64,000 nucleotides of DNA from Halothiobacillus sp. Its GTDB lineage: Bacteria; Pseudomonadota; Gammaproteobacteria; Halothiobacillales; Halothiobacillaceae. Positions 42,334 through 60,308 of the stretch are shown here, piece by piece. How positions within the stretch are numbered: the stretch's first letter is position 1; each line of letters starts with the position of its first letter. The notes under the pieces were generated by a model. That model ran no database searches and had not been told where the DNA came from. It saw nothing but the letters and a program-made list of their open reading frames with translations. A program made the translations under genes and the position numbers. The DNA lies in assembly GCA_020061705.1 (NCBI GenBank), contig JAGUXT010000035.1, positions 2,345 to 66,344 of the forward strand, in the 5' to 3' direction.

Positions 42334-43425
<1,092 letters not shown>

Positions 43426-43448
43426 CTGGTGTTTTCATCGTCAGGTGT

Positions 43449-43564
43449 GCATAAAGCAGAGTTAACAGGCAGCAAAGCGGAGCAAGGCACCTTGCGAAGA
43501 TGCGCGAAGCGCATGCACGGCGATTTGCGCAGCTTTAGCTGTCCTGTTGAACGACAGGTCAGAT
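43449..43564 (-). other. attC recombination site (116 bp, mutated core boxes) after the NYN gene
   Basis: Minus strand: ATCTGAC-5 bp-GTT(C)AACAGG(A)CAGC ... GCTGCCTGTTAAC-TCTGC-TTTATGC; arms complementary except for two extra bases, as in attC. Confidence 0.8.
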
Positions 43565-44307
43565 TAAACAATTGACTTTCTCTTAGCATTTCGCACGTAG
43601 ACTCGGTTTTCTTTTCTTTCAACTTCGAAAAGACCTATAGCCGTGACTAGCTCGCTCAGTTTTGAAAATCCATAATTGCGAGGGTCGAAGTCATTCGCAG
43701 TCTTGCTAATGAAGCTTCCCATTGGGCCAAGTTGCGACCACCCGGCTTCGTCGGAACAGGCGTCAATTGAAGATCTGATTAAATTCGTGAGAGTGGTATC
43801 ACCTCGTAACTCTTTTGTAGTTCGAGGTTTAATGGTGGACTCTTGTTGATCTTCTTGTTTCTTTGCGAAAACTTCGGTGTAAATAAACCTGTCGCAGGCA
43901 GAAACAAATGGCTTTGGTGTTTTCATTTCGCCAAATCCAAAGACGCGGCGTCCAGACTCTCGGATTCGAGTGGCAAGTTTTGTGAAATCACTATCACTTG
44001 AGACAAGACAAAATCCAGATGCGTGACCAGCATAAAGAAGATCCATGGCGTCAATAATCATTGCGCTATCTGTTGCATTCTTGCCTGTTGTATACCGGAA
44101 CTGCTGTATTGGCTGAATGGAGTGTTCGAGAAGAACCTGCTTCCATTGGCCTAGATTTGGTGTTGTCCAATCACCATAAATGCGCTTAACACTTGCGACG
44201 CCGAGTTTCGCAATTTCCGCCAATAAACCTTCTATGATAGACGGGTTGGCATTGTCGGCATCAATTAAGACAGCAAGCGAAGAGTTTGATTCATGAGGGG
44301 CGGCCAC
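43564..44307 (-). CDS. NYN-domain (LabA/DUF88) RNase with C-terminal OST-HTH/LOTUS domain; cassette-borne
   Basis: LIDADNA, RIYGDW, GKNATDSAMIIDAMD, VSSDSDFTKLATRIRESG, FDPRNYGFSKLSELV; AAGGAGG RBS; more AT-rich than neighbours. Confidence 0.92.
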   Translation of the reverse strand: MAAPHESNSSLAVLIDADNANPSIIEGLLAEIAKLGVASVKRIYGDWTTPNLGQWKQVLLEHSIQPIQQFRYTTGKNATDSAMIIDAMDLLYAGHASGFCLVSSDSDFTKLATRIRESGRRVFGFGEMKTPKPFVSACDRFIYTEVFAKKQEDQQESTIKPRTTKELRGDTTLTNLIRSSIDACSDEAGWSQLGPMGSFISKTANDFDPRNYGFSKLSELVTAIGLFEVERKENRVYVRNAKRKSIV

Positions 44308-44376
44308 AGAACCTCCTTGATTAATCTATCGTGTTTTATACAGCGTTATCGCCGTATAACCCAATAAAAAGTTGCC

Positions 44377-44395
44377 ATCTAACAATGTGTTCGAC
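44377..44395 (-). other. attI-like simple site upstream of the NYN cassette
   Basis: Minus strand GTCGAAC-acatt-GTTAGAT (7-5-7); GTTAGAT is a perfect GTTRRRY complementary to the cassette's ATCT(G)AC box. Confidence 0.55.
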
Positions 44396-44527
44396 ATGGT
44401 AACTCCTTGTTTTTCATAATAGTCACGCTGTTATCACGGCACCATCAGCTGACAAGCGCGGCACTTGTGCACCACGCCCGCAGACTGAAATGTGAACTTG
44501 CATTCCTGCGAAGCAGGACAGCCTCTC

Positions 44528-44875
44528 TCAACCCAGCCCCTCCACCCACTCTGCAAACCGCTCATCAAACCCGCGAATCGCCTGCACCACTGGGCGTGCG
44601 GCGACACCGTGAGGCACAAAACAATGCGCTGCGTAAGCATGAATATGGCACGCAGCCGGCGGGCGTAGCCCTACGCGCACGGTTTCACGCATTCTTGGTA
44701 TAAAAACCCATTGCAGCCACATCTCCAGTGGCATGGCATCGCAGGCAAACGGTGTGTCACTGGCCAAGGCTTCGACGGATGGTGGCTGTAGTGACCACAA
44801 ACCCATGCGGCGCAATTCGAGCTCGATCATCTCAAGCTGCGCCAACAAGGCCTGCACTTCAGTGGAGCCTGGCAT
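44528..44875 (-). CDS. yqcC: YqcC/DUF446-family protein
   Basis: ELRRMGLW...P..EALAS..PFACDAM.LE.WLQWVFIPRM. Confidence 0.9.
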   Translation of the reverse strand: MPGSTEVQALLAQLEMIELELRRMGLWSLQPPSVEALASDTPFACDAMPLEMWLQWVFIPRMRETVRVGLRPPAACHIHAYAAHCFVPHGVAARPVVQAIRGFDERFAEWVEGLG

Positions 44876-60009: not shown

Positions 60010-60156
60010 TCAAGAGTTGAGCTGGGAGAATTTATCTAAATACCCTTGTGTAACTGTGCCGATGCTGCAATGCTCAGGTCGGAAGCGCTCACGCACTTGG
60101 TCAAGCGGCTTGGGCGGATGACATGCAAGTGTGTTTAATTTTGGATATGAACCCAT
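60010..60156 (-). pseudogene. intI: N-terminal remnant of an integron integrase
   Basis: PPKPLDQVRERFRPEHCSIGT.TQGYLD resembles the IntI N-terminus (K.LDQ.RE.IR..HYS.RTE.AY..W); stops after ~48 aa, no catalytic domain; divergent from the cassette array. Confidence 0.7.
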
Positions 60157-60164
60157 GCTTAGGT
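60146..60164 (+). other. Degenerate attI-like site
   Basis: TATGAAC-ccatg-CTTAGGT (7-5-7; would be GTTRRRY with a G>C change); same geometry as 44377-44395. Confidence 0.35.
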
Positions 60165-60210
60165 TTACTCCGTGGGATGAGTATTCCAACGAAGGTGGAA
60201 GAAAAGTGGT

Positions 60211-60283
60211 TTTTAACTTTCCGTTCGAGCGGGACACCTTCGCCGACAAGTTGGTTTCGCGCCCCTTAGCTTGCTCGTTAGCA
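60211..60283 (+). other. attC site (73 bp) preceding the TIR cassette
   Basis: TTTTAAC-5 bp-GTTCGAGCGGGAC...GCCCCTTAGC-6 bp-GTTAGCA; canonical 5/6-bp spacers. Confidence 0.75.
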
Positions 60284-60308
60284 TTCAATCAAGTTTGGAG
60301 ACCATGAG

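What the first reader, a model, noticed from the sequence alone, without database searches (positions are those of the whole stretch)
43449..44395. Solo integron cassette (NYN-LOTUS RNase) parked between ychF and yqcC, about 16 kb from the main array
Seen: GTTAGAT before the gene and ATCTGAC right after the stop, which are complementary except for one base. The 116-bp stem has exactly two extra bases (C and A on the coding strand, hence G and T on the bottom strand), the canonical attC extrahelical pair. The upstream site has attI-like 7-5-7 geometry and no integrase is adjacent. Both core boxes are mutated (AAC>GAC, GTT>TTT). Inference: an IntI-mediated insertion at a secondary or relic attI, since locked in place. 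NYN/PIN-fold RNases are plausible defence or toxin effectors.
Basis: partly seen in the sequence, partly recalled or inferred. Interest (0 to 1): 0.7.

Follow-up and report, generated by a model that had tools for sequence, protein, structure and literature searches.

The report
Fossil integron with one NYN-LOTUS cassette
Between two housekeeping genes lies the worn-down remnant of an integron: a stub of the integrase gene, its docking site and one captured gene for a predicted RNA-cutting enzyme. It is a clear but fairly ordinary example of how "orphan" gene cassettes arise.

Summary
Window 43449-44329 (minus strand) is a true integron gene cassette carrying an intact NYN + OST-HTH/LOTUS gene.

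- **Same cassette elsewhere:** a 96%-identical protein lies in at least three different attC-bounded arrays in metagenomes. It has the same 5' end (G|TTAGATTAAACAAGGAGG) and the same R'' overlapping the stop codon (TTTAATCTAAC).
- **attC test:** a covariance model built from 14 other attC sites hits exactly 43449-43564 (21.6 bits, E about 0.013).

- The GTTAGAT at 44382-44376 is not the cassette boundary. The true junction is GATAGAT at 44330-44324.
- The roughly 150 bp upstream is a relic attI, not a secondary site. In a relative it abuts an intact integron integrase; here only a dead 92-nt intI stub remains.
- The stem has three bulges, not two.

All three core triplets are mutated (GTT>GAT, AAC>GAC, GTT>TTT), and the genome encodes no IntI, so the cassette is immobile. 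Two relatives have the empty ychF/yqcC site. A third has the same relic with a different cargo. What the nuclease does is untested, and it matches no known defence system.

The parts
43426..43448 (.). 23-nt spacer between the ychF stop codon and the attC R' box. This is the distal edge of the integron relic and is homologous to the corresponding stretch in G005.
   Evidence: window CTGGTGTTTTCATCGTCAGGTGT against G005 CGGGTGTTGTTATCGACAGGGAG. It is absent from the empty sites of G007 and G016.
43449..43564 (-). attC site of the cassette (116 nt): R'' - 5 nt - L'' ... long variable stem ... L' - 5 nt - R'.
   Evidence: Covariance model R1 hits 43449-43564 over model positions 1-67 of 67, 21.6 bits, E about 0.013. 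Folds. Homologous in its R and L boxes to the 69-nt attC of the 96%-identical cassette.
43558..43564 (-). R'' box ATCTGAC (canonical ATCTAAC; A>G at 43560). It overlaps the last base of the TAA stop codon.
   Evidence: P0002 cassettes read TTTAATCTAAC at the same place. It complements the TAGAT of the cassette's 5' end.
43543..43552 (-). L'' box GTT(C)AACAGG with the extrahelical C at 43549. The second extrahelical base, A, is at 43542.
   Evidence: the same 3 bp - bulge - 6 bp - bulge pattern as in the 14 attCs of the model. On the recombining bottom strand the bulged bases are G and T.
43461..43469 (-). L' box CCTGTTAAC.
   Evidence: pairs with L''.
43449..43455 (-). R' box TTTATGC (canonical GTTATGC; G>T at 43455). 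This is the downstream crossover core.
   Evidence: in contig L042 the same cassette ends in GTTATGC.
43564..44307 (-). Intact 247-aa gene: NYN (LabA-like PIN-fold nuclease) domain plus OST-HTH/LOTUS domain. GTG start, GC 44.8%.
   Evidence: Pfam NYN 1.2e-36 and OST-HTH 1.6e-16. Acidic residues D16, D18, D80, D86, D89, D105 and D107 are invariant in 18 homologues. dN/dS is 0.022 against the 96%-identical cassette copy.
44312..44318 (-). Ribosome-binding site AAGGAGG belonging to the cassette.
   Evidence: conserved as AAGGAGG in P0002 cassettes and in the prmA-linked homologues.
44324..44330 (-). True attI/cassette junction core GATAGAT (canonical G|TTAGAT; T>A at 44329).
   Evidence: aligned with the GTTRRRY cores of 11 attI copies, and similarity stops right after it. 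P0002 cassettes begin G|TTAGATTAAACAAGGAGG.
44324..44473 (-). Relic attI site (about 150 bp). It belongs to a repeat family present 1-5 times per genome in this genus.
   Evidence: nhmmer E = 6e-39. Alignments. It abuts an intact IntI in G002:C350.
44376..44382 (-). It is an internal motif of attI (GTTACAC in most copies), not a crossover point.
44326..44397 (-). Short reading frame inside attI (23 codons, AAGGAG ribosome-binding site, ends in TAG within the junction core). In G005 it overlaps the cargo start codon (ATGA).
   Evidence: It is present with ATG or TTG in most but not all copies, so its function is uncertain.
44433..44524 (+). Dead 5' stub of the integron integrase gene (about 92 nt). 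The start codon has changed ATG>ATC, and there is an in-frame TGA at 44493-44495.
   Evidence: blastn and tblastn against intI of G002:C350. Alignment. A promoter-like site TCGACA-18-CATAAT at 44391-44420 (+) points into it.

Best explanation
This is a fossil integron.

**How it arose.** An integron platform (intI, attI, cassettes) sat between the convergent genes ychF and yqcC in an ancestor shared with species G005. A deletion then removed all of intI except its first ~92 nt. What remains is the attI docking site and, in this genome, one cassette placed there by integrase-mediated attI x attC recombination.

**The cargo.** The cassette carries its own ribosome-binding site and an intact gene for a NYN (PIN-like) nuclease fused to an OST-HTH/LOTUS RNA-binding domain. 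It ends in a 116-nt attC hairpin.

**Why it is immobile.** The conserved triplet in each of the three boxes is changed by one base (GTT>GAT at attI, AAC>GAC in R'', GTT>TTT in R'). The genome also has no integron integrase. Neutral decay is enough to explain the three hits.

**Present state of the gene.** It is still under strong purifying selection. It is probably transcribed by read-through from the co-oriented yqcC operon or from a promoter in attI.

**Likely activity (inferred, low confidence).** The product most likely acts as a stand-alone, metal-dependent endoribonuclease whose LOTUS domain selects the RNA.

**Shown versus inferred.** Shown: cassette identity, attI and intI relics, mutated cores, absence of IntI, empty sites in relatives. 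Inferred: order of events, transcription route, enzymatic role.
For: 1. **Same cassette elsewhere.** P0002 (96% identical) lies on 13 metagenome contigs in at least 3 different neighbourhoods. Each is bounded by attC sites found by the model. The 5' end is G|TTAGATTAAACAAGGAGGTTCCGTG and the 3' end is TTTAATCTAAC...GTTATGC or GTTGGGC. The window reads GATAGATTAATCAAGGAGGTTCTGTG ... TTTAATCTGAC ... TTTATGC.
2. **attC model.** A model built from 14 other sites hits 43449-43564 exactly. It gives no hit at E<1 in the empty sites or in the other 15 ychF loci. The model structure shows covariation: 84.9% of cells paired against 71.1% in shuffles, 0 of 500 shuffles as high.
3. **attI.** It is a 150-bp repeat family. 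It abuts an intact IntI in G002:C350 (487.6 bits). In six relatives the first cassette's R'' is the exact complement of the core at the end of the repeat.
4. **intI stub.** 92 nt, shared with G005.
5. **No IntI in the genome.** The best TIGR02249 hit is 78 bits against a cut-off of 265. tblastn finds only Xer-like hits.
6. **Empty sites.** In G007 the ychF and yqcC stop codons overlap; in G016 they are 6 nt apart. Both have a different yqcC C-terminus (ERV*/DRL* against EGLG*).
7. **Foreign composition.** GC 45% against 56% for the genome; GC3 40% against 60-72% in the flanking genes. dN/dS is 0.022.
8. **Gene absent from relatives.** It is missing from all 16 same-genus genomes searched.
Against: - The attC score is modest (21.6 bits; the model's E-values are rough). 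The site has a 66-nt insertion relative to the model and two broken cores.
- G005's cargo at the same relic has no recognisable attC. Exchange at this locus could therefore have occurred by homologous recombination between the conserved flanks rather than by IntI.
- How the integron platform first reached the ychF/yqcC junction is unknown.
- The assembly has 62 contigs, so an intI in an unassembled gap cannot be strictly excluded, although completeness is given as 100%.
- Nothing tests the nuclease's biological role.
Confidence: 0.85

Rival explanations
1. The cassette was inserted directly into a non-att genomic site (attG or another secondary site) by an integrase acting in trans. On this reading it is a classical SALIN, not a remnant of an integron platform.
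For: Loot et al. (bioRxiv 10.1101/2022.09.11.507474) show that such insertions are efficient, and propose them as the origin of many single-attC elements. Only one attC is present here.
Against: The 150 bp upstream of the cassette are homologous to the attI that abuts an intact IntI in a relative. They are followed by 92 nt of the intI coding sequence itself. The crossover lies exactly at the attI core. The insertion relative to the empty site includes attI and the stub, not only the cassette.
Confidence: 0.04
2. The relic is not truly locked. The orphan attI still works as a docking site for an integrase supplied in trans, for example after horizontal arrival of an integron, so the cassette can still be exchanged.
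For: G005 carries the same intI truncation and attI but a different cargo. Three other orthologous orphan-attI loci also differ in their first cassette between species.
Against: In this genome all three cores have lost GTT/AAC, and no IntI is encoded. The cargo differences between species could date from before the point mutations, or could result from homologous recombination.
Confidence: 0.08
3. This is not an integron element at all. It is a horizontally acquired gene with a terminator or REP-like hairpin, and its resemblance to attC is chance.
For: Hairpins after genes are common. The attC model E-value is only about 0.01.
Against: - Both ends of the model hit coincide, to the nucleotide, with the boundaries predicted from the homologous cassette.
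- The hairpin is not followed by a T-run, and no terminator was called there.
- The bulged bases are in the canonical positions.
- The same gene moves between attC-bounded arrays.
Confidence: 0.02

Closest known systems
SALIN / CALIN elements (single attC site, or clusters of attC sites, lacking an integron integrase; Cury et al. 2016, PMC4889954; Loot et al. 2023, bioRxiv 10.1101/2022.09.11.507474)
   Same: One CDS with one attC and no functional integrase nearby or anywhere in the genome. The cargo is not an antibiotic-resistance gene.
   Different: A recognisable attI and a 92-nt intI stub are still attached. The origin can therefore be assigned to loss of intI from a complete integron, whereas 95% of CALIN have no recognisable intI pseudogene. 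With one attC it does not meet the CALIN threshold of two or more. SALIN are defined as having no other att site nearby, and here an attI relic is present.
Sedentary chromosomal integrons with inactivated integrases (for example the Xanthomonas ilvD-linked integrons; bioRxiv 10.1101/2025.06.18.660453 appeared in the search but was not read)
   Same: A chromosomal location between housekeeping genes, decay of intI, and species-specific cassette content at an orthologous locus.
   Different: The remnant here is extreme: a single cassette and a 92-nt stub. The same attI family is also scattered over many loci per genome in this genus, rather than occupying one fixed locus.
Bacterial LabA-like NYN + OST-HTH ('LK-nuclease + OST-HTH') proteins (Anantharaman et al. 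2010, PMC2848206; Matelska et al. 2017, PMC5499597, group NYN.COG1432); eukaryotic MARF1
   Same: The same two-domain architecture, with the acidic active-site residues conserved. The LOTUS domain matches the NMR structures 2kpm and 2kzv.
   Different: No bacterial member has a tested function. This sub-lineage travels as an integron cassette, whereas 80 more distant homologues (60-79% identity) in named genomes showed no attC with this model.

Membership tests
Integron gene cassette | The ORF is followed by an attC site with R''-spacer-L''...L'-spacer-R' geometry that folds as an imperfect hairpin. | tested here: met
   Covariance model R1 hits 43449-43564 over the full model (21.6 bits, E about 0.013). 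Fold z = -3.7. The geometry matches 14 reference attCs.
Integron gene cassette | Extrahelical bases on the recombined (bottom) strand in the L box. | tested here: met
   C at 43549 and A at 43542 are bulged on the top strand (G and T on the bottom strand). This is the same 3 bp - bulge - 6 bp - bulge pattern seen in the reference sites. A third bulge (T) lies deeper in the variable stem.
Integron gene cassette | R'' is complementary to the TTRRRY at the cassette's own 5' end. | tested here: met
   R'' is ATCTGAC and the 5' end is G|ATAGAT. The intact versions in P0002 cassettes are ATCTAAC and G|TTAGAT, a 7 of 7 match. The same rule holds in six relatives.
Integron gene cassette | Conserved AAC (R'') and GTT (R') core triplets. 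| tested here: not met
   GAC at 43560-43558 and TTT at 43455-43453. This is a decayed site, so the element is a former cassette rather than a mobile one.
Integron gene cassette | The same unit is found in different array contexts. | tested here: met
   P0002 (96% identical) is found in at least 3 different neighbourhoods, all flanked by attC hits.
Integron gene cassette | Excision and integration by IntI. | not testable with these tools
   Needs a recombination assay.
Integron platform (intI + attI) | An integron-type tyrosine recombinase (TIGR02249 at or above 265 bits). | tested here: not met
   Only a 92-nt stub with a lost start codon and an in-frame stop is present. No IntI is found anywhere in G000. 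The cognate intact IntI exists in G002:C350 (487.6 bits).
Integron platform (intI + attI) | An attI next to the 5' end of intI, ending in the G|TT crossover where cassettes begin. | tested here: met
   Homologous to 11 attI copies. Similarity ends at the core, which here reads GAT instead of GTT.
CALIN | At least two attC sites without a nearby intI. | tested here: not met
   Only one attC hit lies within 16 kb.
SALIN | A CDS with a single attC, with no other att site and no integrase nearby. | tested here: inconclusive
   Single attC and no integrase: met. An attI relic is present, so 'no other att site' is not met.
NYN (PF01936) + OST-HTH/LOTUS (PF12872) nuclease | Both domains score above the Pfam cut-offs and the acidic active-site residues are conserved. 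| tested here: met
   126.8 and 60.4 bits. D16, D18, D80, D86, D89, D105 and D107 are invariant in 18 homologues. RNase activity itself was not tested.
Known anti-phage defence system | A match to a PADLOC model. | tested here: not met
   No family at E <= 0.01.
Toxin-antitoxin pair | An adjacent small partner gene in the same unit. | tested here: not met
   The cassette holds a single ORF. In other genomes the gene sits next to, but outside, Phd/YoeB-type pairs.

The most novel reading that the evidence does not exclude
In this genus the attI site may behave as a dispersed, integrase-less 'landing pad'. Three observations point that way.
- **Copy number.** The same ~150-bp attI family occurs up to five times per genome, mostly without intI.
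- **Shared truncation point.** In six independent loci the intI remnant stops within the same 5-nt window (intI nt +33 to +38). At that point the sequence AAC-GCC-GTGTTTG mirrors the attI crossover flank CAAAACAC-GTT. This gives the unit attC-like ends and suggests a site-specific origin or mobility rather than random deletion.
- **Cassette turnover.** In four of four orphan-attI loci shared by two species, the truncation is shared but the first cassette differs. That implies cassette turnover driven by an integrase acting in trans.

On this reading the window's relic is one decayed member of a one-integrase, many-docking-sites organisation.
Probability: 0.2. Interest if true: 0.65.

Novelty: new member of a known kind. 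Interest (0 to 1): 0.4.

Why it matters
- **Origin of single-attC elements.** Whether they are decayed integrons or direct insertions into the genome is debated. Here the attI and an intI stub survive, and both an empty site and an alternative-cargo allele exist in relatives. The origin, loss of the integrase from a full platform, can therefore be read directly.
- **NYN-LOTUS nucleases.** The result shows that this widespread bacterial family with no tested function circulates as an integron cassette under strong purifying selection. That makes it a reasonable candidate for functional screens.
- **Wider pattern.** The many orphan attI sites in this genus may deserve a study of their own.

Tried and rejected
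- **Rfam scan of 43300-44700:** no match at E <= 1. The attI region is not a known RNA.
- **The ~150-bp repeat as a conserved leader peptide or PIN-toxin N-terminus** (small ORF MSNTLLDGNFLL...): rejected, because the frame lacks a start codon in some copies and conservation is at the DNA level.
- **The ~150-bp repeat as the attC of a preceding cassette:** replaced by attI once the intact IntI was found next to it.
- **GTTCAAC...GTTAACT as the R boxes of a 94-nt attC:** rejected. These are the L boxes. The genus attCs and the homologous cassette put the R boxes 12 nt further out.
- **Contexts of the 89-91% homologues (P0009, P0010, P0012):** they lie between prmA and a Phd/YoeB pair with no clear attC, which is uninformative.
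- **80 named-genome homologues:** no attC by this model, so most of the family is not cassette-borne, or their attCs are too different for a genus-trained model.
- **Synteny downstream of ychF:** it varies in the genus (often a tRNA gene), so only G005, G007 and G016 are informative for the empty site.
- **Structure prediction:** not run, since Pfam and conserved residues sufficed.

Full report
**Anatomy.** The finding lies between two genes.
- ychF: 42334-43425, + strand. Pfam YchF-GTPase_C and MMR_HSR1.
- A DUF446/yqcC-like gene: 44528-44875, - strand.

Between them, on the minus strand, is one intact 247-aa ORF (43564-44307, GTG start, AAGGAGG ribosome-binding site). It has an NYN domain (1.2e-36) and an OST-HTH/LOTUS domain (1.6e-16). 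The segment is compositionally foreign. Gene GC is 44.8% against 56.2% for the genome, and GC3 is 40% against 60-72% in the flanking genes.

**The hairpin is an attC.** Downstream of the stop codon the DNA folds into a long imperfect hairpin (z = -3.7). On the coding strand it reads:

ATCTGAC-CTGTC-GTT(C)AACAGG(A)CAGC... ...GCTGCCTGTTAAC-TCTGC-TTTATGC

That is R''-5-L''...L'-5-R', with a bulged C and a bulged A.

I collected attC sites from cassette arrays of relatives and from metagenome contigs. I aligned 14 of them, leaving this site out, and checked the proposed pairing:
- 84.9% of cells are paired against 71.1% in shuffles;
- 0 of 500 shuffles reach the observed value;
- slid controls give 21-45%.

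I then built a covariance model from the alignment. Searched with filters off over the whole window, it gave only three hits at E < 1:
- two attCs of the array at 60-63 kb (62115-62178, which was in the training set, and 60211-60283);
- 43449-43564 on the minus strand, over the full model length, 21.6 bits, E about 0.013.

The model gave no hit in the empty-site loci or in the other 15 ychF loci of relatives.

**The same cassette moves elsewhere.** The protein has more than 8000 homologues. The closest, P0002 (96% identity), is found on 13 metagenome contigs with at least three different neighbourhoods. Those contigs are true arrays, each with several attC hits. In all of them:
- the unit starts ...G|TTAGATTAAACAAGGAGGTTCCGTG;
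- it ends TTTAATCTAAC-AACTC-GCTCAAGTGGGAC...CCCCTTAGC-TCCAAC-GTTATGC or GTTGGGC.

The window has GATAGATTAATCAAGGAGGTTCTGTG at the start. At the end it has TTTAATCTGAC ... CCTGTTAAC-TCTGC-TTTATGC.

So the window's cassette runs from 44329 to 43455, bounded by the cores at 44330-44324 and 43455-43449. Its attC is a longer version of the same site. The two gene copies differ at 103 of 744 nucleotides but at only 9 codons non-synonymously (dN/dS 0.022, dS about 0.95). The divergence is therefore old and under strong purifying selection.

**The upstream site is a relic attI with an intI stub.** Window 44324-44473 (minus strand) belongs to a repeat with at least 10 copies in same-genus genomes and a second copy in this genome, at C44.
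- Every copy ends ...GCGCCGTATAAAACAC followed by GTTAGGC, GTTAGAC, GTTAAGC or similar. Similarity stops immediately after this core.
- In six relatives the R'' of the first downstream attC is the exact complement of that core. This is the signature of attI x attC insertion.
- In G002:C350 the repeat abuts, divergently, a 329-aa integron integrase (TIGR02249 487.6 bits, cut-off 265). The first codons of intI lie inside the repeat.

In the window the core reads GATAGAT (44330-44324). About 92 nt of intI remain (44433-44524, + strand), with ATG>ATC and an in-frame TGA. A promoter-like site at 44391-44420 (+) points into the stub and fits a former Pint.

It resembles the true junction by coincidence.

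**No integrase, and three broken cores.** The genome (100% complete, 62 contigs) has no IntI. The best TIGR02249 score is 78 bits and belongs to Xer-type recombinases. The three core triplets are each changed by one base:
- GTT>GAT at the attI/cassette junction;
- AAC>GAC in R'';
- GTT>TTT in R'.

The attI relic is about 25-30% diverged from other copies. Three hits in three triplets are therefore unremarkable under neutral decay, and no selection for 'locking' needs to be invoked.

**Comparative evidence.** The NYN gene is absent from all 16 same-genus genomes searched.
- **G007 (empty site):** ychF and yqcC are convergent with overlapping stop codons.
- **G016 (empty site):** the two genes are 6 nt apart. 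Both species share a yqcC C-terminus (ERV*/DRL*) that differs from the EGLG* of G000 and G005. The empty state is therefore ancestral, and the insertion replaced the last codons of yqcC.
- **G005 (alternative cargo):** the same intI stub, attI and distal 20 nt are present at the same locus. The cargo is a different, LRR-like 282-aa ORF with no recognisable attC.

The truncated platform thus predates the split of the two species, and its content changed afterwards.

**Function of the cargo.** The architecture is that of the bacterial 'LK-nuclease/LabA-like NYN + OST-HTH' family. That family is predicted to be a stand-alone RNA-degrading enzyme and has no tested bacterial member.
- The acidic residues are invariant across 18 homologues.
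- The LOTUS part matches the NMR structures 2kpm and 2kzv.
- There is no PADLOC match and no partner gene.
- Two integron-defence papers that I searched do not mention the family.

A role in defence or as a toxin is possible but unsupported.

**Placement.** The element is best described as a decayed integron reduced to an intI stub, a relic attI and one cassette. Automated tools would call it a single-attC element (SALIN). It is a new member of a known kind. Its value is as a case where the origin can be read.

**By-product.** The attI family is scattered over many loci in the genus, mostly without intI. Six independent loci share almost the same truncation point, and cassette content differs between species at orthologous orphan sites. 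I could not explain the shared breakpoint.

**Limits.** The covariance model is genus-trained and only roughly calibrated. IntegronFinder itself was not available.

Noticed in passing
Relatives: L029, L033, L028/L030, L034 and G000:C44:44352-44498, L035, L157 (G003:C75): Six independent orphan attI loci keep only ~33-38 nt of intI. Homology starts within the same 5-nt window (...|GCGCCGTGTTTGTCAG). There AAC-GCC-GTGTTTG is an inverted copy of the attI crossover flank CAAAACAC-GTT. Random deletions should not stop at the same place six times.
   Followed up: partly
Orthologous pairs: window/L007; L028/L030; L034/G000:C44; L026/L027: At four loci shared by two species the intI truncation is shared but the first cassette differs (junction cores GATAGAT/GTTGGCA, GTTGGGC/GTTAAGC, GTTAGAA/GTTGGGG, GTTATGC/GTTAGGC). 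This suggests cassette turnover after loss of the cis integrase. G008:C6 and G008:C20 start with the same first cassette.
   Followed up: partly
window 60211-60283 (+) and 62115-62178 (+): The attC model hits these two sites in the '16 kb away' array. The first lies at the very start of the array, inside the minus-strand ORF 60010-60288 that another note read as an IntI-like peptide. Neither TIGR02249 nor tblastn with the genus IntI finds an intI remnant there. The array is on the opposite strand from the solo cassette and has no attI of the family described here.
   Followed up: partly
window 60309-61139 (+) and 62190-62927 (+): Two cassettes of that array look defence-related. One is a CAP12/Pycsar-type TIR effector domain (Pfam 4.4e-33; PADLOC TIR effector 9e-47). 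The other is an AAA/ABC-type ATPase resembling mad3, AriA and GajA.
   Followed up: no
G000:C44:44352-44498 and downstream: A third integron relic in the same genome. An attI copy lies directly after glnS, followed by a 382-aa ORF, a 204-aa ORF and an attC (GTCTAAC...GTTAGCC). It is orthologous to G002:C247 but has different cassettes.
   Followed up: partly
window 44326-44397 (-); L007 1872-1952: A short reading frame with a strong ribosome-binding site lies inside attI. In G005 it overlaps the cargo start codon (ATGA). From memory, it recalls the short ORF in attI1 that helps translation of cassettes lacking their own ribosome-binding site. It is not conserved in all copies.
   Followed up: no
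L036-L041 (metagenome contigs): 89-91% identical NYN-LOTUS genes sit 14 nt after prmA and 100 nt before a Phd/YoeB toxin-antitoxin pair, in front of ahcY. No attC is recognisable. This may be another fixed former cassette pair.
   Followed up: partly
L009, L011, L013, L015, L020, L024 (ychF loci of relatives): In most species of the genus ychF is followed by a promoter and a tRNA gene, not by yqcC. The ychF 3' flank is therefore a rearrangement point in this genus.
   Followed up: no
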